The notes under the pieces were generated by a model that searched no databases, had not been told where the DNA came from, and saw nothing but the letters and a program-made list of their open reading frames with translations. Shown here piece after piece: positions 507-38,802 of a DNA stretch of 64,000 nt (positions within the stretch are counted from its first letter, which is position 1; every line of letters starts with the position of its first letter). The stretch comes from Leucoraja ocellata (lineage: Eukaryota), in contig JAWMAR010000263.1 in NCBI GenBank assembly GCA_036785375.1, positions 992,001 through 1,056,000 of the forward strand. Direction: 5' to 3'. Both the position numbers and the translations under genes were made by a program.

Positions 507-3027
507 AGAAATGCGTGCGGCAAGGGCAAAACAGTTATAATGGGTGACTTCAATCTACATATAGATTGGGTGGATCAGGGGTGCTGAGGAAGAGGATTTC
601 TTGGAATGTATGCGGGATAGTTATCTAAATCAACATGTAGAGGAACCAACGAGAGAGCACGCTATTTTGGACTGGGTATTGAGTAATGAGGAAGGGTTAG
701 TTAGCAGTCTTGTTGTACGTGCCCCCTTGGGCAAGAGTGACCATAATATGGTTGAGTTCTTCATTAGGATGGAGAGTGACATTGTTAATTCAGAAACAAT
801 GGTTCTGAACTTAAAGAAAAGTAACTTTGAGGGTATGAGACGTGAATTGGCCAAGATTGACTGGCAATTAATTCTAAAAGGGTTGACGGTGGATATGCAA
901 TGGAAGACATTTAAAGACTGCATGGATGAACTACAAAAATTGTTCATCCCAGTTTGGCAAAAGAATAAATCAGGGAAGGTAGTACATCTGTGGATAACAA
1001 GGGAAATCAGGGATAGTATCAAAGCGAAGGATGATGCGTACAAATTAGCCAGAAAAAGCAGCATACCGGAGGACTGGGAGAAATTCGGAGACCTGCAGAG
1101 GAGGACAAAGGGCTTAATTAGGAAAGGAAAAATAGATTATGAAAGAAAACTGGCAGGGAACATAAAAACTGACTGCAAAAGTTTTTATAGATATGTGAAA
1201 AGAAAGAGATTAGTTAAAACAAATGTAGGTCCATTGCAGTCAGAAACAGGTGAGTTGATCATGGTGAACAAGGATATGGCGGACCAATTGAATAACTACT
1301 TTGGTTCCGTCTTCACTAAGGAAGACATAAATAATCTGCCGGAAATAGCAAGGGACCGCAGGTCAAAGGAGTTGGAGGAATTGAGTGAAATCCAGGTTAG
1401 CCGGGAAGTGGTGTTGGGTAAATTGAATGGATTAAAGGCCGATAAATCCCCAGGGCCAGATAGGCTGCATACCAGAGTACTTAAGGAAGTAGCTCCAGAA
1501 ATAGTGGATGCATTAGTAATAATCTTTCAAAACTCTTTAGATTCTGGAGTAGTTCCTGAGGATTGGCGGGTAGCAAACGTAACCCCACTTTTTAAGAAGG
1601 GAGGGAGAGAGAAAACGGGGAATTACAGACCAGTTAGTCTAACATCGGTAGTGGGGAAACTGCTAGAGTCAGTTATTAAAGATGGGATAGCAGCACATTT
1701 GGAAAGTGGTGAAATCATTGGACAAAGTCAGCATGGATTTACGAAAGGTAAATCATGTCTGACGAATCTTATAGAATTTTTCGAGGATGTAACTAGTAGC
1801 GTGGATAGGGGAGAACCAGTGGATGTGGTGTATCTGGACTTCCAGAAGGCTTTCGACAAGGTCCCACATAAGAGATTAGTATACTAACCAAAAGCACACG
1901 ACATTGTGGGTTCAGTATTGATGTGGATAGATAACTGGCTGGCAAACAGGAAGCAAAGAGCAGGAGTAAACGGGTCCTTTTCACAATGGCAGGCAGTGAC
2001 TAGTGGGGTACCGCAAGGCTCAGTGCTGGGACCCCAGCTATTTACAATATATATTAATGATCTGGATGAGGGAATTGAAGGCAATGTCTCCAAGTTTGTG
2101 GATGACACTAAGCTGGGGGGCAGTGTTAGCTGTGAGGAGGATGCTAGGAGACTGCAAGGTGACTTGGATAGGCTGGGTGAGTTGAGTGGGCAAATGTTTG
2201 GCAGATGCAGTATAATGTGGATAAATGTGAGGTTATCCATTTTGGTGGCAAAAACGGGAAAGCAGACTATTATCTAAATGGTGGCCGACTAGGAAAAGGG
2301 GAGATGCAGCGAGACATGGGTGTCATGGTACACCAGTCATTGAAAGTAGGCATGCAGGTGCAGCAGGCAGTGAAGAAAGCGAATGGTATGTTAGCTTTCA
2401 TAGCAAAAGGATTTGAGTATAGGAGCAGGGAGGTTCTGCTGCAGTTGTACAGGGTCTTGGTGAGACCACACCTGGAGTATTGCGTACAGTTTTGGTCTCC
2501 AAATCTGAGGAAGGACATTATTGCCATAGAGTGAGTGCAGAGAAGGTTCACCAGACTGATTCCTGGGGTGTCAGGGCTCTTATGAAGAAAGACTGGATAG
2601 ACTTGGTTTATACTCTCTAGAATTTAGGAGATTGAGAGGGGATCTTATAGAAACTTCTTAAGGGGTTGGACAGGCTAGATGCAGGAAGATTGCTCCTGAT
2701 GTTGGGGAAGTCCAGGACAAGAGGTCACAGCTTAAGGATAAGAGGGAAATCCTTTAAAACCGAGATGAGAAGAACTTTTTTCACACAAAGAGTGGTGAAT
2801 CTCTGGAACTCTCTGCCACAGAGGGTAGTTGAGGCCAGTTCATTGGCTATATTTAAGAGGGAGTTAGATGTGGCCCTTCTGGCTAAGGGGATCAGAGGGT
2901 ATGGAGAGAAGGCAGGTACGGGATACTGAGTTGAATGATCAGCCATGATCATATTGAATGGCGGTGCAGGCCCGAAGGGCCGAATGGCCTACTCCTGCAC
3001 CTAATTTCTATATTTCTATGTTTCTAT
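507..3027 (+). mobile_element. 5'-truncated CR1-clade LINE (ORF2 APE-endonuclease remnant + RT), disabled
   Basis: ORFs read VIMGDFN (APE), [53 protein letters not shown], and the C-terminal RTRGHSL...FFTQRVV. Stop at 1885-1887, frameshift near 2180 and stop at 2532; 3' tail (tttctatg)n. Confidence 0.95.
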
Positions 3028-5973: not shown

Positions 5974-6686
5974 ATTTCCATTGGCAGCTCATTTGACAAG
6001 CACAGCATCCTCTGTGTGGAACACATTGCCCCTGGTGTCCCTTTTAAAACGTTCCCTTCTCATCTTAAATCTATGCCCTGTAGTTTTAGACTCCTCTACC
6101 CTTGGGAAATGGCTATGGCTTTTTAACTTTTCCATGCTCCTCATGGTTTTATAAACCTCAATAAAGTCACCTCTGTGTTCCTTTTTTCCTTTGTTGCAGG
6201 GGGCAAATATTCAATCTATCCAGCTTCTGCTCATAACTCAAACCTCCCTGACCCAGGAATATCCCCATAAACATATCTTGAGCCCTTTCCAGTTTAATAA
6301 CATCCTTCCATCCAATGCAAGGCAACCGAAAAAGTGCACAGTATGCCAAATGTCATCTTACAAACATCTTGTAGAGGTGTAACATGACATTCAAGCTCCT
6401 GTGCTCAATACATTGACCATGAAAGGCAAACATACCAAATGCTTTCTTCACCACCCTCCTACCTGTGTTGTCACTTTCTTGAAAATATGTACCTGCACCC
6501 CTCAGTCTCTCTTTACTACAAGTCTCATTTACTGCACGTCCAGCCCTGGTTTGTCTTACCAAAATGAAACACCTCACATTTATCTGAATTAACTTCCATC
6601 TGCCATTCCACAGCCCATTGGCCCATTTGATCAAGATTTCCTTGTAATATTAGATAACGTTCCTCACTCTCTGCTATAACCACCAA
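5971..6686 (-). mobile_element. Old CR1 fragment, left part of the CR1 split by the DIRS insertion
   Basis: Minus-strand CR1-like residues (VVKKAFGMFAF, KLERAQ); the RT motif KFxDDTKIGG is cut at 6686. Confidence 0.75.
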
Positions 6687-9600
6687 TTTTACTTCGGAGT
6701 CACGTGAGTGACTACGTGAAGAGCCCGCTCAGCACGCATGCGCGACATTGCGTTCACGCAGGCAACAGCGATGCAGCGGGAGTCAGGCGCTCCCGCTATA
6801 AGCCTGAAGGAAAGGACCGTTAGGTAAGTACTTACCTTCAGTTTAAAGTAGTGACTTTGCGTTCGTTTTTGCTCCAGGGGGAGCAAAGCAGCAGAGGGAA
6901 GCGGCCCCCGTTCGACTCCAGGGAAGGAACCGACAGTGGAGGGGGGAGAGGCGGCAACGGGACCGCACACGCTGCGGTCCACAGACACGGGTGCTGCGCT
7001 GATGCCCAGTCCGCTAAACAGCTGTCTGACCAACAGCAGAGGACTGGAGGGAAATTCAAAAACCGGCCGGCACCCCTGCAGACTTCCGACAAGGAGACTC
7101 GCCGCCCGAGAACCGCTGAAATGCCGCCCGAAAACGGCAGACAGCCTCTAACAGCAAGGTCAGGACCAACCTCAGGCTGGAGACAGACACGGAAGATGGA
7201 ATCAGCACTTCAAACAAGAAACAAGAGTGTCTGTTTCTCCAAGCCAGAGGAAGGTCATGGAACTAAAAACTCCAGCGAGACTTGCCTCAGGAGCAGGGGC
7301 AAGTCCGCCAAGGGAGCTAACACTCCCACTCCAGTGCCTAACTGCATTGGCCATCTCCCTTGTCGAGGGATTGATGGGGACCAGACTGGACTGGTCAAGA
7401 AGAGGGGTCACTGGCTGAAGTTTATCGGGAGTATGCTTGAGGTATAGGATCAGGAAGAGCTGCTGGGTGTGGCCGCTATGTGGCTCCACCACTAGCGAGA
7501 TGGCTTTTCAGTCTCAACTGATGGCCAGCTTACTACCTGTTCTTTTAAAAAAAACCTCTCCAAGACAGGTAGTCATGAGGTGTTGGATTCATCACGCCTC
7601 CCCTAAATTGCATTTACTCAAAGTGCCCACCGTTATTGGGGGGTACATTGAGCATTGCTTTAAAACCCAAATATCTTCAAATGCGTTTGATATCCCTGAC
7701 GTCGGTTATCATTTTGCATGCTCATTTCAGAGGGACAGGGTAGTATGGCAAAACACCTGACCCTACTGCTTGCAGTGCTCCGCAACTTCTTAGGAAGTTA
7801 TAAAACCTGCCCTCAACTTAAAAAATTACAGGACTGTGAGAATGCCAACCTCTCAACCACAGATCCTGCTAGCTGGCTAAGTTATCAAACCAAGCCTAAA
7901 AAACTGGAGAAGTATCCAAAATTCGGCATCTAGAGGGCAGGGTCTGGAATGAGCACCACACGAAACCAGCAGCAGTGCCTCTAGGCGTCCACCAGTAGGC
8001 GTCCATCTAATAGTACTGGTGTAAACTCGGGGCCCGCATGCCAACCACCAGTAAGCCCTGTTTTGTCAGGCCAGGGTCCAGAACGGGCCCCCTGGAAAAA
8101 TGTGCCACCCCCAACAACACCATCCCTACGGACAAGGAACCAGAAACCGAAGAGATGAACACACCACGGAACAACAGTGAAATAAGATAAGTATGGTTCC
8201 TGCCATCACACAAAAGATGAAGGGTTTGTACTAACAAAGCATTCAAGGATAAAATTAAATTAGATCCCATCCTGCTCGGCCTTTTGGCTAAGATTAGTAG
8301 TAACTGCCTTATTAGTTTATATCTGATATGTCCCTTCCCAGGGACCATACAATACCAGTACAGCATGCACCTTAGGGGTCTACCCTCCCACTAATAAGAA
8401 CATGAGGGACTAGCAACTGGGGGTAATAATTATACAGGGGTCATATAGAAGCCTATATGAACCTTTGGTACCAACTAACCACGTCGCCATCATTGATATC
8501 AAGGGGTCATAATAAACCCAGTATGAACCTTTGGCTCTAAAAATCCCAACATGGTATATGTCGCACCGTCATTGACTTGCCACTTGAGTATCTCGCCAGG
8601 CCACGCTTGGAATATTGAAACTGCCAACCTTTCATTCCAAGCATACTTAATGGTAGACATCAACTTAAAAGATGCATACTATTCAGTACCCATTCAAAGA
8701 ACTTGGAGATAACTTGGCAGTATTAATTATCGACTATGACTATTACAGCCAAACTGGTTCCAGATATTCTAACCAGCCCTGGCTATATTAAGGAACTATC
8801 GTCATGGCATGTTCCAATGATATTAACGACGACTAATCCATGGGTATAGCTATCACAGCTTTAGTTATTATTCTTTTAGCCGAGCTTGTCATGCAATCCA
8901 GATAGATCTACGATTGAAACCATCGCTCTCAGCCTTGACTAAGATCAAGCTGAGTATCTGTTGTTGTTAGTTCTATTTTGACTTTGATATTGACATATAT
9001 CAATTGATTTGGAACAGGGAGATGGGGAGGGGCTTGTTCCGTCCACTCCACGCATCAACCAGTATTGCAGTACCTTGAAATATAAATCCTCTACTGTTGA
9101 CTATTTGGTATTCAACACCCTACCCACTTATCTTTAACTTGGCATAGGAGAGTCAGTATGACACAACCTGTAACAATTAATGGTATCTACCTACCATTCA
9201 ACAGTGGCAAGAGTATTGGGAGTTAGTAGCAGCTGTTCCAGCTACTTAACTTGAATCTTCCATTAAGGCTAGGTGCTAATGTTTAAACTACCCTCACCCA
9301 AAACATGGTGGCATAAGGACTAATCTGGAGTCGTCATCACTATAGACACTAGGCGTAAAACCTAGTTTGGAAATTTTGAGTACGCTCTATTGGCAAAGCA
9401 TATTATCCTGCAGTGCACCATTTTGTACATCACAGTAGTGACATACACAAACCACTTGGGCAGAATAAATCGATATCATGTGACATTTATTTAACAATTG
9501 GAAACTACAGGTCGTCAAAAATATCCGACCATCAGCAAACTTACCCACTAGGTGAGCTAAATACTGTAAACAGACATATTAAACCCAAGTATTGCTGGAA

Positions 9601-11456
9601 TTACAAAGCAATATGGAACACCCGATATCGATTTCACTGTGTTTAAGAGGGAACTGCAGATGCTGGAGAATCGAAGGTTACACAAAAAAGCTGGAGAAAC
9701 TCAGCGGGTGCAGCAGCATCTATGGAGCGAAGGAAATAGGCAACGTTTCGGGCCGAAACCCTTCTTCAGACAATTTTGATTTCACTGTATTCAATTGAAT
9801 TCTCCACATACCGATGTATGTCGCAAGAAACCAAATTTGAGGCAGGGGCAATGAATTCATTCCCACTGAATTAGGAAGCGTGAGGGGGGAATCTAATCTA
9901 CGTTTTTTCCCTTTTTTCCTACCTTATCAGGCACTATGGCCTCATCAGTCGGGTACTACGCACATGCCACGATAAATTAAACTACTGGATTGCAGATTTG
10001 AAAAGACCATCACTGGTCCTGGATTGCAGAATTGGGAAGACCTCTGCTGGGCCTGGATTGTCAACAGCGCTATCAACACAAGGACAGCATCCCATCGCAT
10101 ATCCACTAGGGAACATACTTGGCGAACATCAAGAAGTGGGAAGATACCATTCAAATACAGGAACTACATATTCAACTACAACAAACCTGTACTTGAGTTC
10201 TGGCAGGTCTTCACCACAATGAAGGATTCAGCCAGAAGTGCTCTGTCAACCTACTTAACTCGGGCACCAGGACCACAGGCCATAGGGTACCCCACTGGTG
10301 ATCAAATTTAGGAGAGGTTAATCCCCCAGATCCAGGTACACCCAAATCTGGGATGTCAGTATGGACCTGACGTACCTTAGGGGATGGTCACCAGCCAGGT
10401 CCCTCACCCTGGAACAGTCCACCCTGAAGGGACATGCTGATGGCCTTGTCTCAGCACAAAGAGTCCAGTTTTCCTCCATCCAATACGATTGGACAATATG
10501 GTCCACTACACCATGTTACATTACCATTAGGGACTGGGCAAACAGAGCAGACCAGGAACATCAGGTCTAGTCATGGAATTCCGGGCATACCCACCTGAAC
10601 CACGGTTATGTGTCATGACCCACTTATTGAACTACATCGACACAATAAGTAATCCTCGAGGGAGAGAAAAAGCCTTATGGGTCAGCCACAAGAAACATTA
10701 TGGTCGGGTGACGAGCCAAACTATCTCAAGTGGCTCAAGCAGGTACTGGGAGTTGCTGGAGTACATATTAACGTGTATAAATCTTATTCCACCAGGACAG
10801 CATCCACATCAGTGACTAAGAGGATGGACGTGCCAATGGACCACATCCTGGCTACAGCGGGGTGGTCTAGGGAGTATACGTTCCAAACTTTTATAACAAA
10901 CCACTGACAGAACCTGTATCGTTGCAGAAAAAGAATCTGCAAAAAATATATAATTTAAGCCCGGGGGAGCATTTGGTCTTGTTGTTAATAATACCATTAT
11001 TGTTTTTACAAACAGATTCATGGTTGATTACGATAACATACTTCCTCCCTCGAAAGACTTCGGCAGCGAGTGAAGTATGAACTGTTACACGGTTAGAAAT
11101 CACAGAGCTTTAAAATCTTCACGTAGTCACTCACGTGACTCCGAAGTAAAATAATAAGAATAAACGAGAACTTACAAGTTTGAAGTTTGATCTGTATTTT
11201 ATGAGGAGTTACGATGAGGGATTACATGCCCTCCGCTCCCACCCTCAATAATATGGGTCAAACTGATAACTAAGCTCTCCTTTTCTTTACTATGTTTATT
11301 TCAATAACTGTGTCTGTCTGTGATTACACACCGCTGCTTTGCAGTATGTCGCGCATGCGTGCTGAGCGGGTTCTTCACGTAATCCCTTATCATAACTCCT
11401 CATAAAATACAGATCAAACTTCAAACTGGTAAGTTCTCGTTTAATCTCACTATTTT
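6687..11456 (+). mobile_element. DIRS1-type tyrosine-recombinase retrotransposon, full termini, decayed ORFs
   Basis: Left ITR ttttacttcggagtcacgtgagtgactacgtgaag...gcacgcatgcgcgacat; ICR at ~11116-11226 complementary to both ends; right ITR ~11345-11380 plus extension to 11456. RT remnant DINLKDAYYSVPI (8656-8694); YR C-terminus STRTASTS...ILATAGWS...TF (10677-10907). Confidence 0.92.
9641..9771 (-). mobile_element. Short Penelope-derived element nested in the DIRS
   Basis: Matches the terminus of the Penelope fragment at 46133-46225; flanking direct repeat gatttcactgt (9630-9640, 9778-9788). Confidence 0.8.
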
Positions 11457-11780
11457 AGTGTCATCCACAAACTTACTCGGCATGCCTCCCATAATCCCAT
11501 CCAAATCCTTAATGTAAATAATGAACAAAAGTGGACAAACCATTGATCCCCACTGACACTACTCTTTACAGTCTGTGTCTGTAAACCAACTCTCCCCACC
11601 ACCACCACCACCACCACATATATTCTGTCTTCAAGCCAATTTTGCATCCAATCGGCTAGTTCGCCTTCGATCCCATATGATCTGACTTTTGAGACCAGTC
11701 TCCCATGCGATACCATGTCAAAGACCTTGCTGAAGTCTATGTGGATAATGTCAACTCCACTGCTCTCATCATCTACCTAG
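11457..11780 (-). mobile_element. Old CR1 fragment, right part of the CR1 split by the DIRS insertion
   Basis: Minus-strand VSHGRLVSKVRSYGIEGELADWMQNWL; resumes the KFVDDTK motif. Confidence 0.75.
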
Positions 11781-20839: not shown

Positions 20840-23800
20840 CGTCTATCTCCTTCCAGGGGCTGGGGTCAGTGTTTTCGGGGCGGAGAGGCGCGGTGGCTAT
20901 TTCTCCAGGGGAGGCGGGTTCGCTGTTGTTTGGGGGCCGGGCCGAGGGCTGTCCTGCATTACCTGGAGCTGGCGCTGCGAGAAAAGAGCACTTTATCCAT
21001 GTGCGCCTGACAGCTACAGCAGCAGCAGCAGCAGCAGCCGCAGCCAGCAGCCCCTCTAGCAGCGCAAGACACAACAACTTCCCGGGGCTCGGACAAAGTC
21101 CAGGCAGAGACGATGCCGCTCTCCCCGCAGCCGCGGGCAGGTGCTGGCGGCCGCAGGACCAGCCGCTTCTCCACGGCCAGTGCTCTTTGCCTCTGCTTCC
21201 TCCTCGCTGCCCTGCAAGCCGAGGAGCTGCCGGAGCCCTCCCGGGACACGCTGCTGCTCGCCAACAACTTGGTGAGGGCGCCCTTCGGCAGATCGGTCCA
21301 CATCGACCCGGTCAACGACCTGATGATCCAAGTGGTCCCGGGAGACAGGTGCCTGGTCACGGTGTTGGACAACGAACCCCTGTCCCAGAGACCCGGCGTG
21401 TTGTCGCCCAAGAAATTCCCCTGTGACTTCGGGCCGGGGGACGTCGCGTACACCCACCACGGCTCCAGGAGCCCGGCCGCGGACCGGGTGAGGCTGCAAC
21501 TCCGCTACGACACACAGACCGACACCATCATCGTGCCCTTCTCGCTGGAGATACAGGTGGTCTTCCAGCAGCTGCAGGTGGTCACCCGCAACGTGCCTCT
21601 GGTGGTGGAGAGGCTGAACGGAGCCAGCAACCCCATCGATAGCAAGGTGCTGGGCTTTACCTACGACGGGGGCTCTGAGAGCTGCCAGCTCACCCCTCTG
21701 CTGGGCGAGGGGGGTTTGCCCCGCTATGGACACCTCGTCAACTTCAGCAGCAGCAGCAGCAGCAGCAGCAGCGGGCGGTCGGTGGACTGCGCCGCCTTCG
21801 TGCAAGCGGGAGTCCGCTACCAGCACACGGCGACCACTAGTTCCCCCAACAGGGACTACATCCCCATGCTGGTGGAGCTACTGGAGCGGGGGGGCCGGGG
21901 CAAGCCGGCCAGGCAGGAGTATTTTCAGCTGGTGGTTCGGATCCGCCCGGGGGCCGAGAACACGCCGCCCAGACCCAGCTTCGTGGCCATGATGATGATG
22001 GAGGTGGATCAGTTCGTGTTGACGGCCATCACCAGCGAGATGTTGGCGGCCGAGGACGTGGAGACCGAGGCGGACCAGCTGATTTTCAACATCACCTCGC
22101 CCCTGGGGCCGGCCGAAGGGCAGCTGATCAGCACCGCCGACCAGAACCAGCCCATCACGTCCTTCTACCAGGGGGACATGCGGGAGCTGACCATCGCCTA
22201 CAAGCCCCCGGCGGCAGACTCGGACGAGGAGCGCATCTTCCAGCTGGAGCTGCAGGCGGTGGACTCGGAAGGGGCCGCCTCGGAGCCGTTCGCCTTCATG
22301 GTGGTGGTGAAACCCATGAACACGCTGGCGCCGGTGGCTAGTGGAGGCGGAGGGCAGCTGCTGCTGTTCGAGGGCCAGTCTCGGCCGCTGTCCACCCTGC
22401 ACATCAGCGACGAGGACGACGTGGAGAGGGTGAGGGTGAGTGTGGTGCACGGCCTGAGACACGGCCGGCTGAGTGTGTTGGGAGCAGCCCGCAGCTGGTT
22501 CAGCCCCGCCGAGCTCCACGCCGGCCTGGTGGTCTACCAGCACGACGGCGGCGAGTCCCACAGCGACAACGTGGTCTTCCGCATGGAGGACGGCCAGGGC
22601 CACCGCGTCCAGTTCCTCTACCCCATCAGCATCGCCCCGACCGACGACCAGGCGCCCGTGGTCATCGCCAACACCGGCCTTGCGCTGCCCGAGCAGAGCA
22701 CCCGGCAGATCTCGCCCTTCGTCCTCAGCGCCAGCGACATCGACTCCGAGGACTCGGTCATCCGCTTCTTGCTGGAGGCTCCCTACTCCCCGCTCGGGCT
22801 CCTGCTCCTCCGGCAGGGAGAGAGGCCCCAGGAGATACATACAGGCTGGAGATACGTGGAGGAGCAGCGGGTGTACGAGAAGGTGGTGAGTCAGTGGACG
22901 CAGCGGGACATCTTGGAGGGCAAGTTGTACTACAGGCACGTCGGGCCGCACAGCACCCGCACCGTGATGGACTCGCTGGCCTTCCGTGTGCAGGACGATA
23001 ACGACCCACCCAACCTGTCCGGAGAGCACAGGCTGACGGTCAAAGTGGAGCCTGTAGACCACCTGCCCCCCGAGCTGTTCCCCGGCACCAGCCTGCAGAT
23101 GGTGGTCAGGGAGTACGAGCTGAGCCACCTCGGCAAGAAGTCCCTGCGCTACACAGACTTGGATTCGGATGACCGGCAACTGAGGTACACCATCCTATCG
23201 CCACCCACCGACATAGACGACAACAACCCGGTCCGGACGGGGGACCTGGTGCTGAGCGGCAACCCCGAGGCAGCGGTCAGCCAGTTCACCCAGGCTCAGG
23301 TGAGCCACCACAAGGTGTCCTACCGGCCCCCGGACCAGGAGCTGGGCATCACCGCCAGGGTGGTGCAGTTTACCTACTCGGTACACGACCCCGCGGGCAA
23401 CGCCGCCAGAGGCACTTTCACCATCTTCCTGCAGCCGGTGGACAACAAACCCCCGCAGATCAGCAACACGGGCTTCACCGTGACCGAGGGCGGCGATTTC
23501 GTATTGACGGCCGGCGAGCTGGACGCCAGCGACGAGGACACGGACCGGGACAGAATCACTTTCACCCTGACCCAGGCTCCCCAGCACGGCCGGCTCCAGT
23601 ATGTCGGGGTCACCATCTCAGCAGGAGAGTCCTTCAACTTGGACGACATCGCAAGCGGGCGGCTTGTGTACCGGCACAGCGGAGGCGAAACCACCGCCGA
23701 TTCCTTCAGACTGGACGTTGCCGACGGGCTCCACCAAGTGCCGGTGGCCGTTCGGGTGACGGTGAGTCCCGTAGATGACCAGGCGCCCACCATCACCTTG

Positions 23801-23900
23801 CCCGAGGGTCAGCTTGGCTCCCACATCGACGTCCTCGAAAACGGAGCCACTGAAATCACCACCAGCGTCATCCGAGGCACCGATGAAGACACCGATGACT
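20840..23900 (+). promoter_or_regulatory. CpG-island-like region over the putative promoter and 5' part of exon 1
   Basis: Visibly GC/CpG-rich; GC boxes ggggcgg and gaggcggg at ~20877-20918; TSS not determinable. Confidence 0.6.
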
Positions 23901-26141
23901 TAATGCTGACATTCATTGTGGAGAATCCACCCAAACTGGGGGAAATACTGGCCAACGGGCTGCCAGTGGAGAGATTCACCCAGGAGGATTTAATGAATGG
24001 CGCGGTGGTCTATGCCCATACCAGTGGCGAAGTTGGCACACAGAGGAAACACGATTGGTTCAACTTGACTGTCTCTGACATGTCAAATGAATGGGTGGTT
24101 GGCGGGAATAAGGTGCAAGGAGTCAGGGTTCAAGTCACCATCTTGCCCGTAGACAGCGTGGCACCTGATGTGAAGGTTGGAGAGCAGTACACGGTTTTGG
24201 AGGGGGGGAAGAATGCCATCACAACGGGACATTTAAACGCTGAAGATATAGATACCCTAAAGGATGACATCCTGTGCATAATCATTGTCCAGCCAACATC
24301 CGGTTATGTGGAAAACATTTCACCGGCTCCAGGGTCTGAGAAGTCGAGGAGCGGCAAGGCCATTAGTGCTTTTACCATGAAGGATGTTGGAGATGGCCAC
24401 GTCCACTATGTTCAAAGTATTCACAAGGGGGTTGAACAGGTGGAGGACAGGTTCACCTTCCACTGTTCCGACGGCATTAACTTCTCTCACCACCACTTCT
24501 TCCCAATTGTAATTTTCCCAATCAACGACGAAACGCCAGAGATCTTTGTCCGTGAGTTTGTGGTGATGGAGGGGATGAGTCTCGTTGTGGACAGCCCAAT
24601 ATTGAATGCGGCCGATGCCGACATTCCCCCTGACCAACTTCATTTTATCCTAACTAAACCGCCAAAGCATGGTCAGTTTGTGCAGCAGTCGGCACAGGGT
24701 ACTGTGCCCATCAAAAACTTTACCCTGGAGGACATCTCCATCGGTTCCACCATTGTCTACGAACATGATGATTCTGAAACCAATGAAGACACCTTTGATA
24801 TCAGAGTTACAGATGGCAAATATACTGTGGACAAGACAGTCCCCATTATGATAATCCTGGTTGACGATGAAACTCCACGCATGACCATAAACGATGGCCT
24901 GGAAGTAGAAATAGGCGAGTCGAAGATAATAACCAACACAATCTTAAAAGCAACAGACTTGGATTCTGATGACAAAACGTTGACTTATGTAATTCGTCAC
25001 AGCCCAAGTCAAGGCTTGTTGCAACATTTGATGAAAGATGGCGATGTGCTTCAGAACCTCACAGTCGGCATGAATTTCACCCAGGATGAAATCGATAAAG
25101 GATTGATTCAGTATGTGCACGCTGGCCAAGCGGGCGTGCGCGATCTCGTTAAGTTTGATGTGACGGATGGCATCAACCCACTGATTGATCGCTATTTTTA
25201 CATTAGCGTCGGCAGCATCGATGCGGTGTTCCCGGAAGTAATTAACAAAGGTGTCACATTGAAGGAAGGTGGGAAGGTGACGCTGACTACAGATTTACTG
25301 AGCACCAGTGATATTAACAGCCCCGACGAAAACTTAAGGTTCAGTATCACTCGTGCTCCGAGACGAGGGCATCTGGAAAAGACTGATAGTCCTGGCCTGC
25401 CTATCACCTCCTTCACTCAACTGGAACTAGCAGGAAACAAAATCTATTATATCCATACATCGGATGATGAAGTTAAAATGGACAGTTTTGAGTTTGAGGT
25501 TACCGATGGTTACAATCCAGTGTTTCGTACATTTCGAGTTTCCATAACAGATGTCGACAATAAGAAACCGGTTCTCACGATCCATGACTTGGTCGTGAGC
25601 GAAGGGGAAGGGAAGCTGATCACTCCCTTTGAGCTCACAGTAGAGGACCACGACACACCAGACTATTTTCTCAGTTTCATTATCACCCAGGTCCCTGTTC
25701 ATGGTCAGTTGCTGTTTAACAGAAGCCAACCAGTCACCAGCTTCACCAAGCAGGACCTCAATGACAATCTCATTAGTTACAAACACGATGGCACGGAGAC
25801 AAATGAAGACAGTTTCTCTTTCACAGTAACTGATGGCACACATACTGAATACTACGTTTTCCCTGACCCTGTGTTTGAAACACGCAAGCCTCAGACGATG
25901 AAGATCTGGATCGCAGCTGTTGACAACGGTGTTCCACAAATTATTGTCAACAAAGGGGCTCCAACACTTCGACTAATGCACACTGGTCACCTTGGATTTA
26001 TGATCACCAGCAAGGCACTGAAGGCCGAGGACCGTGACAGCCCACACAAACTCCTGAAGTACAAGATCTCTGAGGGACCAGAGCATGGCTACATTATTAA
26101 CACTGATCTGGGAAACGACAGTATTACCACATTCAGTCAAG
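21113..26141 (+). CDS. FREM3: FRAS1-related extracellular matrix protein, giant coding exon 1 (signal peptide, N-terminal domain, CSPG/cadherin-like repeats); FREM3 favoured over FREM2
   Basis: 1676 codons + 1 nt; ATG with A at -3; signal-like [18 protein letters not shown]; motifs [26 protein letters not shown] and repeated D-x-D-S/T...P-x-HG...FTQ..YxH. Donor CAA G|gttggt. The C-terminal [14 protein letters not shown] resembles FREM3 as I recall it, so family confidence is high and paralogue confidence moderate. Confidence 0.85.
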
Positions 26142-28340
26142 GTTGGTGTGAAGTTTTATAGTCAAGTTTTAACCTAGAAAGCTTTTTTATCTCTCTATTC
26201 CCACTATCTATTTAATCTGTATATTAGATGATAATAATTATTTGAACAATCGCCAATTTACCATTCCAAATATGATAGGCTTAAATAAGACAGCAGCCTG
26301 AACAAATAGTATCTGTCCAAAGAATAATGACATCTTTCACATGTGGTCTCTATTATAGCTGTATTTTTGTCCATTTTCTTACACTTATTTGCTGATTTTG
26401 TGTGACTGGTGTTGAACAACATGACACTGCCTCCAGGAAGGATTGCATTGTTCCCTTGTCGGTACATATGACAATTCAACCCTCTTGTAATTAAGCACCG
26501 GTTGTACTGAAGTGGGTTCAGGTATGCAATGCTATGTGTTTGACAATTTTTATCCACACAGTCTGGCCTTTTGTCCGTTGTTTATTCTTGCATGACTGTT
26601 TTTGGATTAAGTAGTTGAACCAAGATTAACAAGCTCTGATCAGTGAAGTTTGGTCAAAAGGTAGCAGGTGCATGAAGGACGTTTCAAAAAATGAGCTAAG
26701 TAAAAAATGAGCTTTACATTGCATTACCAGTCTGAAGACAGCATTTGATTATGACAACTATTTTAAGAATGCTTTGAAGTTAAAAGTGATTAAAGAAAGT
26801 GGTTCCCGAGTGCTACTGTGCCCTTCCAGACGGCAGCATATAGAAATAGTGAATGAATTGGTGTGTGGCATGAAATAAGGATCATTGCATAATTCACTAC
26901 AGTGTTCAGTAGAGACATCCACATGACAACATCTGTTAGCTTCGTTTTAAAGGGCGTTCAAGTCTGCGAGGCATTACTGCAGTGCACAGTGAACATGAAT
27001 TAGGTGAACAATTGCTGACATTGTATTGAAAACCACTTGAGCTTTTAGTCAAAAGCACCCTGGAGCAGCCAGAAGAATGGAAGATAGTAAACAGAGTTTA
27101 ACTATGCAATTCTTGGTGTATTGACTTATGTTGGCCATGCCAGAGGTTAAAGCATAGCTAAAGAGAAGCCTGTTATTTATGTTTCCTGCCATCAAGAGAA
27201 ACCTTCAGTAAGACTCACAGAGACAATTCATTCAGCACATGACATTCGTTTGAATATTGGATACTAAAAAAATGAATTGGCAACTACAGTTTTAGTTTAC
27301 CAAAGTATTATGCTATCAACACCTGGTTTATACTTGTTAAAACAGAAAATATTTAAGTTTTTCAATTATATTCAATTGGATTGTGAATAAGAAGGATGAT
27401 GCAACATGGTTTCAAAGGCATCTAAATAAGCTGGATGAATGGGCAGGAACGTGACAGAAACAATATAACGTGCAAAAATGTACTAGCTTTGCATCTTTGG
27501 AATGTTTTACCTAGAAGGTTGTGGAGGTTTAGTTGTGTGTTTTTTTTTCAAAATAGAGATGAATAGGTTTCTGGATATTCAAGGAAGTATCTTTGACTAA
27601 CAGGCCAGCCATTACACTGATGAATGACAGCTTCTTCCTCAATGCTACATCTTGTAATTGTAATTTGAATATAATAAGTGTGAATATGTTGAAAGTAAAT
27701 TTTAAAGCTGGTTGAAGTTATGGTTCCCTTATCTTGCCCTTCGGCATTTAACACAGGTAGAAAAATGTTTAAACATTCTGTTGACTGGGAATTCCTGCCA
27801 TTCCATTGATTCATCGTGTCCTTGTTGTTTCTATAATTGTGGTCTCCTAAAGGTTTATCTTAAGTGATCCTATAATCCATGCTTTTGTCAATAAGATGAA
27901 TGGTGGTTGTTAACTTGAAGCAGTGTTCCAAAATAGCCTCAGGTAAGCTTTCAGTTATCTAAACACTGACAGACTTGATCGGGGAAGCTTTGAGAAACAG
28001 TAAACACTAAATGACATTTATTTTGTTTTGAATCACAACACTGATGCTCTTAAAATTTACAAGTATATTAGCATCGCTCGATGTTCCCCATGTGATGGTT
28101 AAATGTAGTCTACAGCTTTCAATGCAAGTTATTGCAGAAAACCTCAGAGAGGAGACTTTTATCTTGTATACGGCTGGAGATTGTCTACATCTTTTAATGC
28201 AAGTAATTCTTAAATGTGGACTCATAGAGATAGAGTCATACAATATGCAAACAGAGGCTTCGCCTATTGAGTTGGTACTGGCCATAAGCACCCATTTACA
28301 TTAATCTTTCACTTATTCTATTTTATTTGCCCCTCATTCC

Positions 28341-34075: not shown

Positions 34076-37000
34076 AATAGTAAGATTAAACGAGAACTTA
34101 CCAGTTCGAAGTTTGATCGTTATTTTATGAGGAGTAACGTTGAGGGATTACGTGAAGAACCCGCCAGCACGCATGCGTGTCATTCTTCAAAGCAGCGGTG
34201 TGAAATCACACATAACAGTAATGACCTGAACATAGTAAGATTAGAGAAAAAAGGATACCAGTTGAACTTTATGATCGGGGGTGTGAGCGGAGGGCACGTA
34301 ATCCCTCAATGTTACTCCTCATAAAATAACGATCCAACTTCGAACTGGTAAGTTCTCGTTTAATCTTACTATTTTACTTCGGAGTCACACGAGTGACTAC
34401 GTGAAGATTTCAAAGCTCTGTGATTTCATGCCGTGGAAACGAGTCCATGCCTCACAACTGCCTTAATTGACTAAGGGGGGAAATAGTGTTAACGTATTCA
34501 AACATGAATCCGACATTGAAATTCCATGATGAACTATTAACAACAATTATAGCCCCTGTCTTATGGGGTAATCATGATACAGATCTAATTTTGATTCTGC
34601 AATGTCACATCTCATTGCCTTTGTGCTGTTTAGAGTTCTCTATGTATAAGAACAAATGTCTCATAATGCATAGGCAATCATCTATTGGGTATGCACTGAA
34701 CTCGATATGAGGCCTGACGATCCCGGTCTGTTCTGTTAAACTCATTCGTGGATGTAAAAAGTTATTTTGCTAGTAGAAGAGATGTTACTATCCAGCCTTG
34801 ATTTATGTAAAGACTGAATTCTGTGTGTTGAGACCAATGCCATAAGCATGACCATGTCATGTGCAAGTCTATGCAGGGACAGAGCTGTAGCTGGTGACCA
34901 ATTCCTCAGTAATGTTGGACTATACTCATATACCATATAAGGGAAACTAGCCCTTGGGGATAACATTAAAAATTCCCCTCATGAGTTTAGTCACCAGGGG
35001 GTGAGACCCGACAGAATGACGCTCTGATCCTTGCCCCAGAATACTGAAAAGGCACTACTGGCGCAGTTTGTGGCACTAAACTGAGCCCCTCATCATAGTG
35101 GAGGCTAGCCAGGAATTTCAGAACAGAGTTATGTTCGTCGTACAGTAGTGATGTTGTTCCTAGAACAATGTTTCCCACTTCCTGATGTGGACCCGATATA
35201 GTTTCTTCGTGGACTGCCTGTGAGCCGCTGCATATGTTCATTGTTCAGTTCGTTAGTCCCAGGTCCGGAAATGGTTACTTAAGATTCTGCTGACGAACAC
35301 ATTTGTCCTATTATGGTAGGGGTGATTTTCCCGCCCGCTACGGGATGGACCAACAATCTGGTTATTTTGGAACGGAGAGCCATGTTTAGTTGTATTTTGC
35401 ATAATACCCGACTGATGAGGCAGAAAGGAGGGAATGTATAGAAAGAACAATCCCCCCCCCCCCCGCCCCCCCCCCCCCCACCCCCCCACCCCCCCAATGC
35501 AGCAAGAAGGCATCCATCGCCGATGCCCCAGTCTGATTCCCAAGAAACACAGATAGGCAACTGGTGATTAAGCCGAGATGCAATAGATCAATCTCTGGTG
35601 TTTCATATCATGCTACAATATCAGCAAACACTTTGCGGTCCAACATCCATTCGATGTTTGTCATGAATTTGCGTGACCTGGTGTCTGCCACTAAATTTGA
35701 GGTTACCTGGTAGGTAACTAGCTGATATTCAAATGTTTTTCTGAATACACCACTGCCAAATTGTGTTAGCCGGATTATCACATGATACCGATTTGATTCC
35801 ACCCATGTAGTTAGTATATGTCACCATGGTGGTGTTATCAATCTGTAGTCTAACATGCAGGTGATGCATTTCTGAACAGTATGATTTTAGTCCATAGAAC
35901 GCACCCAACATTTCCAAGTAGTTTATGACATGTATCTGAAGCAATGATGCATCCCATCTATATCCACAACTAGAGATGGGGTTAGTAACACGCCAACCAT
36001 GAACACTGGGATCAGTTTGTAGCACCACTGAATGGTTGCTGACAATGATAGGGCTTGAACAATGCCCAATATTTCCCCTATCATTGTATTTCCGTGATTG
36101 CTTAGATTGGTAGCCTCATTGGTCTCTACACATGACCAGTATTGATTTTAAGTGCTTATACCTTTGTCCTTGTAATTATTGGTAATACAAAGGTCAAACA
36201 GTGTGGCTGGAAAGGCCACAGTATTGCCAATTACCCTTGCTACCAGTCGAATAGGTGGTTTACTGATGTCAATGAGGTTGTTGGCCTCAGTTAAGTCTGT
36301 ACCTTCCTTTGATAAGTTACCCACATGTAGACTAAGTCAAAGGTGAACCCTAAGAAGTCCTTAGTGGTGGAAGGTGTTAGTTTAGAATTAATAACGTCTA
36401 TAATCCTTCCGCATAGGCACCGTATGGTAAGCATCTTTTAATGGATGCAATCCATAAAGTAGCCTATGGAATCAATTGTTTGGCAGTAACAAAGGTTTCC
36501 AATTTCAAATGAATTTACTGCACAATGTATTCAGGTTTGTCAGACCTGAATGTTTGGTAACCACATCTTTTTGTTTTTCGTAAAGATATTGACACGAATT
36601 CCAAAGAGTCGTGTTGGGATTTCCCCATGATTCCCTAGCATCTAGCCTCTCCAGTTCAGCATGCGCTCCCAATTTTTCTTATCGTGAAGGCACGAACATT
36701 CAGTTCGGTACATGCTGAACCGGGAAATTTTGTGCACAAATTCAATTGTATATCCCTGAACACTAGGTAGAAAATAAGTGTTAGTAGTTATTGCACTCCA
36801 TGCCTCCCAAGAAAATGTAATCTACACACCAATTTGTGTTATTTATATCTCCTGTTTTTTGGAAGAGACCAGACACCTCTACCTCCATGGTGACCAGTGG
36901 AAAGTTTGTTTTCTTCCTTGCAGTCGCCGTAGAGGTTGTGGCGTTGGTTTTTGGATTTGGGATTTGGGGTTGCACGTCTTCCACGAAGGCCGGTCTGGGC

Positions 37001-38379
37001 CAGACCTAAAATACCTCTGTCCTGTAGCCCGGCCTTTGAGCTTTCACCAACTTATGTGTGTCTTCCTGCTGGTGGGCGCGTGGAGGTGCTGTTGTCGTGT
37101 GTAGGAGATCCTGCCTGTTGCCGCCTTTATGAGCCCTAGGGTATTGGCCTCCTTATTGAGCTCTTTTACCTGTTTTGACAGGTTGCCCCCAAGTAGTAAT
37201 ATTGGTGGTTTAATCCCTCCAGGTCTGCACAGCTCTGCAAACTTAGGGTTTAAAGCTGGGCGGATGGTGTTCTCCTGAGACTATTAATCTCATACTTCGC
37301 ATTGCAGAATAATGCCACAGCGTCTTAGCTAAACATCCTGCCTTCTGACTCCTGTTCCAATGTGTTTTCAGACCCATTTTCCGGTGCCAAATATTTGGCA
37401 GTAGTGTCTATTACAGCCATGTTCCTGGAGTTGTTTTTAGATGTACAAACTTGGACTCCTTTTCCAGGAGGTTTCCTTGTTCTTGCACCCCCTGCACACT
37501 GATTTCTTCCTTCAGCAAAACCCCTCTTCAGAGCCAGCCCAGAATTGGCTCCCAGTACTCCCCTCTGTCGAGGGAGATGCACTGTGCAGCCCTGATAAGG
37601 TGCTGCCATGGGTGTATTATATACCCATTGTGACCCATTATATACCCATTATATACCCACAGTGGAGCATGTGCTCCATAAACCGCTCCATTTGGCCCCA
37701 GTAACGCTGGTCCCCGCGGCATTTCTTTGCAGTTCGACTTGTCAGCCAAGTCGGGCACAGCTGATCCCACTAACGGTGATCTGGTGCCATCAGCCGCTGC
37801 TGGCTGTCCGCAACTCCGCGGTTTCCCCAGCCAGTGCAGCCCTTGTGGACTCCTGTCCATATTTTCCCCCTGTAAGAAACAGACACGGGAAACAAACACG
37901 ACCGCAGTAATTCCCTTACCCGTCGGTCTTGGTTTTAAAAACTTGCCGCTGCAGGGGAATGCTCCCCCCGCCTGCCGTTTCAACTTGTCAGAGTCAACGG
38001 CTCTTGATCTGTGTATCCTTCCCGCCCAGCCGTGGTGTTGATCTGGCCGGCGCGGGTGCTAAGTCCGGCACAGCTGATCCCATTCTTGGTGATGCTGGTG
38101 CCTTCAGCTGCTGCTGCTGCTCCGCGGTCCTCCCCAGCCAGTTTTAGACGCAGCCCTTGTGGACTCTATTTTTGTCCAGTTTCCCCCTGTAAAAACAGCG
38201 CGGGAAACAAAAAATGACCGCAAAGTAATTCACTTACCTGTCGGTCGCGGTTTCAAATTTACCGCTGCGGGAGAACGTCGTTCCACCCCGTCTGTCGTCT
38301 CGCAATGCGTGAAGCGATATGACACGCATGCGTCCTGGCGGGTTCTTCACGTAGTCTCTCACGTGACTCCGAAGTAAAA
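34076..38379 (-). mobile_element. Second DIRS1-type retrotransposon, antisense in intron 2, decayed ORFs
   Basis: Same termini as 6687-11456 in reverse; ICR ~34296-34406. RNase H LQTDPS.HGW...INYLEM...LQIDNTT (35729-36028); methyltransferase-like YTFPPFCLISRVL (in ORF 35279-35560); RT KDAYHTVP near 36420-36440. Confidence 0.92.
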
Positions 38380-38802
38380 TTCAATGGAGTTGGCACTCTA
38401 TAGTCAGAGCATTATACAGCATGGAAACGGGCCCTTCAGCCCAATTTGTCTGTGCCAACCAGGATGTTCATGTAAGCGAGTCCCATTTGTCCACGTTTCA
38501 ACCATGTCCCTCAAAACCTTTCCTATTGTGTTTCAACCATTTCCAATTAAGTGTGAAACCATATAGTGCATATTTTAGGTTAAATGTAAATCTGTCTCTT
38601 ACTGCTTTGTGCTAGGATTTCACCTCTGGTAAAAACAATGCTAGAAGCAAAGAAAATGTGTTATGATTGTGCTATGCTAGTCTCCACACAGTTTATCATC
38701 TTCTGCTGACATCTGAAATAAGTCAGCAGTAAGCAAGTGGAAGACAAACATTTAGGAAAAACTTCCAATTCACTTCATATTCACTTGCTGACTAGAATAA
38801 TT

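What the first reader, a model, noticed from the sequence alone, without database searches (positions are those of the whole stretch)
6822..6881. Conserved ~50-nt GT-AG intron-like unit in the DIRS 5' leader
Seen: copy 1 has tag|GTAAGT...gtttttgctcCAG|GGGG (6824-6877, 54 nt). Copy 2 on the minus strand has cag|GTAAGT...tgtttttaCAG|GGGG (38187-38237, 51 nt) and again ggg|GTAAGG-like ...tttcttaCAG|GGGG (37870-37919, 50 nt). Donor, pyrimidine tract and acceptor are retained while the middle diverges. In copy 1 the donor lies within a perfect 16-bp palindrome, aggtaagtacttacct (6822-6837), which could mask it. Inference: a regulated splice signal that separates unspliced genomic RNA from mRNA. A 50-nt intron is very short for a vertebrate, so the donor and acceptor may instead be used with distant partners.
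Basis: partly seen in the sequence, partly recalled or inferred. Interest (0 to 1): 0.7.

Follow-up and report, generated by a model that had tools for sequence, protein, structure and literature searches.

The report
Likely leader intron in DIRS retrotransposons
Two decayed jumping genes in a cartilaginous-fish genome keep what looks like a very small intron just ahead of their first gene, and some distant relatives keep a similar one, which suggests (without RNA proof) that these elements copy themselves from unspliced RNA and make protein from spliced RNA.

Summary
Two decayed DIRS1-like retrotransposons (6686-11454 +; 38380-34076 -) carry 50-54 nt GT...pyrimidine...CAG units about 140 nt from the 5' end. 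They are three of the four strongest short donor-acceptor pairs in the window, but two are tandem duplicates, so there are two independent cases. In metagenome relatives, 8 of 32 family leaders hold a 64-119 nt unit ending 1-23 nt before the gag ATG (1.3 expected). Five of the eight form one clade, and a diverged pair keeps donor, CTAAC branch motif and acceptor. Best reading: a retained 5' UTR intron, as in Penelope, spliced in mRNA and kept in the RNA that is reverse-transcribed. It is not shown: no spliced read was listed in two RNA read runs, one possible-RNA contig set or one DNA-like contig set from relatives, at only 7-8x RNA depth. The fish units are also near the vertebrate size limit. 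Masking by the palindrome is not supported. Side results: a donor 11-44 nt after the gag stop (14 of 21 families) and a near-invariant donor about 25 nt from the 3' end.

The parts
6686..11454 (+). DIRS1-like retrotransposon copy 1, decayed, ATT at both ends
   Evidence: Self-comparison shows ITR and ICR; tblastn with P0002 hits 9576-10775
6686..6748 (+). Left ITR of copy 1
   Evidence: 84% inverted match to 11346-11408
6824..6877 (+). Leader intron-like unit of copy 1, 54 nt; candidate branch A at 6854
   Evidence: Donor score 11.4, acceptor 10.9; A positions
6822..6837 (.). Perfect 16-bp palindrome over the donor; not kept as such in copy 2
11116..11228 (+). ICR of copy 1, complementary to both termini
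   Evidence: 11116-11152 matches 6686-6722 at 100%; 11147-11228 matches 11376-11457 at 91%
11429..11434 (+). 3'-terminal donor-like GTAAGT of copy 1, 26 nt from the end
   Evidence: same motif in 24 of 27 relative loci printed
34076..38380 (-). DIRS1-like retrotransposon copy 2, decayed, a different subfamily
   Evidence: ITR/ICR; tblastn with P0004 and P0002 hits 36821-34611
38187..38237 (-). Leader intron-like unit A of copy 2, 51 nt
   Evidence: Donor 12.9, acceptor 9.5
37870..37919 (-). Leader intron-like unit B of copy 2, 50 nt; first ATG 10 nt after the acceptor opens a 110-codon frame (candidate gag start)
   Evidence: Donor 9.1, acceptor 10.9; ATG scan
37745..38301 (-). Tandem duplication of the leader (two copies of about 240 nt, 75.6%) that carries units A and B
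34295..34407 (-). ICR of copy 2
   Evidence: 34295-34373 matches 34076-34154 at 97%; 34371-34407 matches 38344-38380 at 92%
34096..34101 (-). 3'-terminal donor-like GTAAGT of copy 2, 26 nt from the end

Best explanation
The unit is a small U2-type intron in the 5' untranslated leader of a DIRS1-like retrotransposon, between the left ITR and the gag start codon. Part of the sense RNA is spliced there and serves as mRNA. The RNA that is reverse-transcribed keeps the intron, so new DNA copies inherit it. The intron is optional in this clade: most related families lack it. Shown: the sequence anatomy, its position, its recurrence and selective conservation in relatives, and retention in DNA copies. 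Inferred: that splicing happens, that it joins these two nearby sites in the fish, and that it separates mRNA from genomic RNA.
For: Three of the four strongest short donor-acceptor pairs in the window sit at the same place in two DIRS subfamilies whose leaders are otherwise about 50% alike. In relatives, 8 of 32 family leaders have GTRAG plus an acceptor within 30 nt of the gag ATG, against 1.33 expected from dinucleotide shuffles; none of the eight has GTRAG on the opposite strand. L002 and L007 keep GTGAGTATTT, CACTAAC and the pyrimidine tract with TTTAG while the unit is 50/65 identical, against 59/60 in the ITR. L004 and L034 also have CTAAC about 20 nt before the AG. Five unit-bearing families form one clade (100/98) whose sister clade of five lacks the unit. 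The leaders of L002, L051 and L070 minus the unit are 127-138 nt, close to the 82-148 nt leaders of that sister clade. These elements also keep a donor 11-44 nt after the gag stop (14 of 21 families, 0.6 expected), so splicing signals are part of their design. Penelope and Chlamys-3 retain a 5' UTR intron (PMC8557442, passages).
Against: No read or contig joining 6823 to 6878 was listed in any of four runs; RNA reads at 6864, inside the unit, numbered 3 (X8) and 7 (X11), and an X1 contig runs through it unspliced. The test is weak: depth 7-8, related species, unknown tissues, and mostly one-directional, probably antisense, gag reads in X8. At 50-54 nt the fish units fall among ultra-short introns, which are rare in humans (22 candidates of 37-65 nt, 15 with evidence; PMC4463651, abstract). 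Unit B has no A between positions 13 and 46 to serve as branch point. 24 of 32 related leaders lack the unit, including L043, L047, L049, L058 and L067 in the clade that holds the fish elements. The enrichment is inflated by relatedness (five of eight in one clade) and by thresholds chosen after viewing the sequences; a stricter score gave 4 of 30 against 0.97.
Confidence: 0.58

Rival explanations
1. Both sites are real splice sites but too close to splice to each other in a vertebrate. The donor joins distant acceptors (for example the one at the end of pol, before the recombinase frame), and the acceptor takes an upstream donor (host transcript, tandem copy or the element's terminal donor).
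For: Length of 50-54 nt and the missing branch A in unit B. A CAG acceptor recurs at the end of pol in five families of the clade closest to the fish elements, and copy 1 has CAG|ATT at the matching place. A donor lies 26 nt from the 3' end of both copies.
Against: No GT..AG joint from 6823 to any place up to 8250 was listed (low depth, and the recombinase acceptor lies outside the stretch laid). Relatives have their own post-gag donor whether or not they have a leader unit. Relatives' units are 64-119 nt and need no distant partner.
Confidence: 0.2
2. The unit is not spliced in the fish. It is kept as a U1/U2AF-binding or internal promoter element, or as a DNA site for the element's own proteins, or it is the shrunken vestige of an older intron.
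For: Only unspliced RNA was seen. GTAAG is also near-invariant at the 3' terminus, where no conserved acceptor follows (9 of 19 against 5.4 expected), so the motif can be kept without a local intron. GTAA-N4/5-TTAC is an inverted pair in all three units. In Penelope the leader intron overlaps the internal promoter (PMC8557442).
Against: A donor-binding or promoter role does not explain a pyrimidine tract plus CAG|G kept at 50-54 nt in two subfamilies, nor the branch motif and acceptor kept in relatives.
Confidence: 0.18
3. Chance resemblance to splice sites in a T-rich leader.
For: Only two independent cases in the window; the scoring matrices are approximate; donors alone are barely enriched in related leaders (11 against 6.8).
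Against: Three of the top four pairs in the window at one homologous position; selective conservation of three separate signals in L002/L007.
Confidence: 0.04

Closest known systems
DIRS1-like tyrosine-recombinase retrotransposons (Piednoel et al. 2011, PMC3266345, passages; Gazolla et al. 2021, PMC9210276, first fifth and passages)
   Same: ITRs, ICR complementary to both termini, right extension, NTT (ATT) at both ends, gag then RT-RH-MT then YR, about 4.3-4.8 kb.
   Different: Neither paper's main text contains 'intron' or 'splic'. Here a leader intron-like unit, a post-gag donor and a terminal donor are found.
5' UTR intron of Penelope (Drosophila virilis, 75 bp) and Chlamys-3_cRei (398 bp) (PMC8557442, passages)
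   Same: A spliceosomal intron ahead of the first ORF, near the terminal repeat, retained through retrotransposition.
   Different: Penelope-like elements use a GIY-YIG endonuclease and pseudo-LTRs, and their introns are shown in RNA. Here the carrier is a YR element, the unit is 50-54 nt, and splicing is not shown.
BARE1 spliced gag RNA and separate RNA pools (PMC3735527, abstract)
   Same: Splicing used to separate translated RNA from reverse-transcribed RNA; resembles the post-gag donor of the relatives.
   Different: BARE is a copia LTR element and its splice shortens the coding region; the unit here lies in the leader and changes no reading frame.

Membership tests
DIRS1-like retrotransposon | Inverted terminal repeats | tested here: met
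   6686-6748 vs 11346-11408 (84%); 38319-38380 vs 34122-34183 (87%)
DIRS1-like retrotransposon | ICR complementary to both outer termini, with right extension | tested here: met
   11116-11228 and 34295-34407
DIRS1-like retrotransposon | RT-RNase H-methyltransferase followed by tyrosine recombinase | tested here: met
   Direct Pfam scan of 10 decayed frames found nothing relevant. Homologues P0002-P0005 carry RVT_1, Dam and integrase SAM-like matches, and P0002/P0004 map in order to the copies. The RT core of copy 1 gave no hit, only short matches to copy 2.
DIRS1-like retrotransposon | NTT trinucleotide at both ends | tested here: met
   ATT at 6686 and 11452-11454; ATT at 38380 and 34078-34076
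U2-type spliceosomal intron | GTRAG donor and pyrimidine tract with YAG acceptor | tested here: met
   Scores 9.1-12.9 and 9.5-10.9 with recalled matrices
U2-type spliceosomal intron | Branch-point A about 18-40 nt before the acceptor and far enough from the donor | tested here: inconclusive
   Copy 1: GTGAC, A at +31/-23. Unit A: A at +23/-28. Unit B: only A at +12/-38 or closer to the donor. Clear CTAAC in relatives L002, L007, L004, L034.
U2-type spliceosomal intron | Removed from RNA at the GT..AG borders | tested here: inconclusive
   No junction listed in four runs; RNA depth 7-8 over the unit
Retained retroelement intron (Penelope-like behaviour) | Intron kept in new DNA copies | tested here: met
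   Present in both window copies and in X4 and X1 contigs; no intron-less joint listed at 2% share in X4; kept in L007, L061, L066, L069, L071
Penelope-like element | GIY-YIG endonuclease and pseudo-LTRs instead of YR and ITR/ICR | tested here: not met
   The carriers have ITR/ICR and YR homology

The most novel reading that the evidence does not exclude
This clade of DIRS1-like elements sorts its RNA with three splice donors: an optional leader intron that marks mRNA, a donor placed under 50 nt after the gag stop (a spacing that should escape nonsense-mediated decay) that removes pol, and a near-invariant donor about 25 nt from the 3' end that acts on the genomic RNA itself, either defining its 3' end through U1 or back-splicing to an upstream acceptor across the paired ITRs, the lost terminal bases being restored from the ICR.
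Probability: 0.15. Interest if true: 0.85.

Novelty: new variant of a known kind. Interest (0 to 1): 0.52.

Why it matters
Retroelements normally lose introns, and Penelope-like elements are the textbook exception. A retained leader intron in DIRS1-like elements of a vertebrate and of distant relatives would extend that exception. With the post-gag and terminal donors it gives exact, testable coordinates for an open question: how DIRS elements express three overlapping genes and set aside the RNA they copy. If the 50-54 nt units are spliced, they would also be among the shortest vertebrate introns. The two window copies are dead, so the effect on the host is probably nil.

Tried and rejected
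No host genome was held, so conservation across genomic copies could not be counted directly. The 20-nt terminal pattern found nothing in viral or prokaryote collections. The run search listed no holder on record as RNA. Reads were laid only on 6600-8250 and only on 4 of 24 listed runs, so copy 2, the recombinase acceptor and the terminal donor were not tested in RNA. Pfam on 10 decayed frames gave no relevant family. Palindrome masking: rejected for copy 1; unit A's donor does sit in a predicted hairpin (pairing 0.73 against 0.61; z -2.8), unit B's does not stand out, and relatives range from 0.39 to 0.97. Removal of upstream ATGs: rejected, none of the upstream ATGs lies inside the unit in 7 of 7 relatives checked. 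An intron across the circle junction (terminal donor to an acceptor in the first 35 nt): not supported, 9 of 19 against 5.4 expected. Gag-recombinase fusion from the post-gag donor: no support; the three in-frame cases used weak sites at or before the gag stop, or a read-through frame. Exact intron loss between close relatives: not found in five alignments of related leaders. The 49-nt DNA deletion 6848-6898 in X4 has TA..GG ends and is not an intron-less copy. The count of 6 gains or losses on the tree is unreliable, because four proteins of unknown leader state were scored as lacking the unit.

Full report
Setting. The window is from an animal genome, most likely a cartilaginous fish (inference): it holds a 1716-codon FREM2-like exon (name from my own recognition of the translation), and the only named homologue of the element's protein is from Leucoraja erinacea. 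No whole genome was available.

The carriers. Self-comparison shows two full-length, decayed elements. Copy 1 runs 6686-11454 on the plus strand and copy 2 runs 38380-34076 on the minus strand. Each has inverted terminal repeats, an internal region complementary to both termini, and ATT at both ends. A Pfam scan of 10 decayed frames found nothing relevant, but five homologues found with one frame include reverse transcriptase, Dam-like methyltransferase and integrase SAM-like matches, and two of them map back in the expected order. This matches the DIRS1-like definition in PMC3266345 (passages). The two copies share termini at 80-88% but little internal DNA, so they are different subfamilies.

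The observation. Using approximate splice matrices that I recalled, 4 donor-acceptor pairs 45-60 nt apart score at least 8 at both ends on the two strands of the window, and three are these units; at a threshold of 5 there are 35. Units A and B of copy 2 lie in a tandem duplication and are 83% identical, so there are two independent cases. Copy 1 and copy 2 units are 55-56% identical, like their flanks. The donors lie 139 and 144 nt from the 5' ends. An ATG 10 nt after acceptor B opens a 110-codon frame; the gag start of copy 1 could not be placed. The palindrome is real but weak evidence: three non-repeat perfect 16-mers occur in the window against about 1.3 expected, and the donor of copy 1 is predicted to be less paired than its surroundings.

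Relatives. An alignment of 33 of the 120 listed pol homologues found 542 related stretches in metagenome contigs, of which the best 77 loci were kept, plus one viral-collection locus. Their host organisms were not determined. They form 49 clusters at 88%; 32 had a usable leader, one per cluster, and several start codons were placed by hand. Eight of 32 have GTRAG followed 64-119 nt later by an acceptor 1-23 nt before the gag ATG, against 1.33 expected from dinucleotide shuffles. The nominal P of 2e-5 overstates the case, because five of the eight are one clade and the rule was set after viewing the sequences; a stricter score gave 4 of 30 against 0.97. L068 has a unit further upstream and L001 a donor without a good acceptor; neither was counted. 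The clearest evidence is qualitative. L002 and L007 keep the donor, a CACTAAC branch motif and the pyrimidine tract with TTTAG, while 15 of 65 columns differ, mostly between these signals. L004 and L034 have CTAAC about 20 nt before the acceptor. On a tree of 34 RNase H-methyltransferase segments (L053, L060, L072 left out), the five unit-bearing families group at 100/98 beside five families with short, unit-less leaders. L052, which has a unit, is nearest to the fish group (94/91, not starred), but L043, L047, L049, L058 and L067 of the same wider clade lack it. The unit is therefore optional and patchy, as expected for an intron in an element that sometimes copies spliced RNA. No exact loss was caught.

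RNA test. Of 24 listed runs, four were laid on 6600-8250 at 80% likeness: raw RNA reads X8 and X11 (about 6% and 5% of each run read), contigs X4 (kind not on record, taken as DNA) and contigs X1 (possibly RNA). Three joints were listed, none with GT..AG ends and none at 6823-6878. Depth over the unit was about 7 in X8 and 8 in X11; 3 and 7 reads covered 6864, inside the unit, and one X1 contig spans it unspliced. A joint needs three reads to be listed. In X8 the gag region is read in one direction only (18-70 against 0), which in most stranded libraries means antisense RNA, so these reads are probably copies carried inside other transcripts. The result counts mildly against efficient splicing and does not refute it. 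In X4 no intron-less form reached 2%, which fits retention in DNA copies.

Other splice signals. In 14 of 21 families with intact gag, a donor lies 11-44 nt after the gag stop, against 0.6 expected from coding windows (pattern chosen). That spacing is within the roughly 50 nt that escapes nonsense-mediated decay (recalled rule). An acceptor recurs at the end of pol in five families near the fish group. Separately, G|GTAAG lies about 20-26 nt from the 3' end or in the ICR of both window copies and of 24 of 27 relative loci printed; two contigs ended too early and one was rearranged. No conserved acceptor follows it across the circle junction. Its role is unexplained.

Mechanism. Most likely the left ITR region drives a sense transcript, part of which loses the leader intron and serves as mRNA, while unspliced RNA is reverse-transcribed and completed with the ICR (replication model from PMC7192593, passages). 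In Dictyostelium DIRS-1, a reporter intron placed between the left repeat and ORF1 was incompletely spliced, which the authors ascribe to competition with retrotransposition factors; a poorly spliced 50-nt intron at that place would favour retention. I put local splicing at 0.58, distant partners at 0.20, an unspliced binding element or vestige at 0.18 and chance at 0.04. The main doubts are the size, which is in the ultra-short class (PMC4463651 and PMC5435141, abstracts), and the missing branch A in unit B.

Novelty. Retained 5' UTR introns are known in Penelope and Chlamys-3 (PMC8557442, passages), and spliced versus copied RNA pools in BARE (PMC3735527, abstract). Searches of the held library (listings, with passages read in PMC7192593, PMC3266345, PMC9210276, PMC9341512 and PMC3212892) showed no description of a native leader intron or terminal donor in DIRS1-like elements. 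I did not see the Goodwin and Poulter papers, the Poulter and Butler review, Repbase entries or any supplements, and these may bear on the claim. Earlier notes of this scan report introns in other DIRS-order elements, so the theme recurs; they are unchecked leads. Verdict: a new variant of a known kind, well supported in anatomy and comparison, unproven in RNA. Interest 0.52.

Noticed in passing
window 11429-11434 (+), 34096-34101 (-), both ICRs; loci such as L002, L016, L047, L051: A near-invariant G|GTAAG(T/C) donor consensus about 20-26 nt from the 3' terminus, in 24 of 27 relative loci printed; in many relatives it is preceded by its own complement. Function unknown.
   Followed up: partly
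L002, L006, L008, L014, L016, L047, L049, L052, L058, L067, L068, L072, L074, L075: A splice donor 11-44 nt after the gag stop codon in 14 of 21 intact families (0.6 expected). A possible decayed equivalent, GAG|GTAGAG, lies at the pol start of copy 2 near 36888.
   Followed up: partly
window 8269-8388 and 8922-9092 (+): Two U2 snRNA-like stretches inside the pol region of copy 1, both in the element's sense direction (E 1-2e-4, below the Rfam gathering score). Two such inserts in one 4.8-kb element is odd.
   Followed up: partly
window 9639-9770: A short interspersed repeat inserted in copy 1, with many relatives in the window.
   Followed up: no
window 7496-7943: In RNA run X8 the gag region is covered at 18-70x in one direction only, probably antisense to the element.
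   Followed up: no
window 21011-26161 (+): A 1716-codon open frame resembling the large first exon of FREM2 (name from my own recognition); it lies between the two DIRS copies.
   Followed up: no
window 45717 (+): The fourth high-scoring short donor-acceptor pair; by eye it lies in a GIY-YIG (Penelope-like) coding remnant and looks like a chance hit.
   Followed up: partly
L052:1-217: The leader has a duplicated donor segment (GTGAGC at 40 and 93), echoing the duplicated leader of window copy 2.
   Followed up: no
window 565-1887 (+): A 440-codon frame of a LINE-type reverse transcriptase remnant (by recognition).
   Followed up: no
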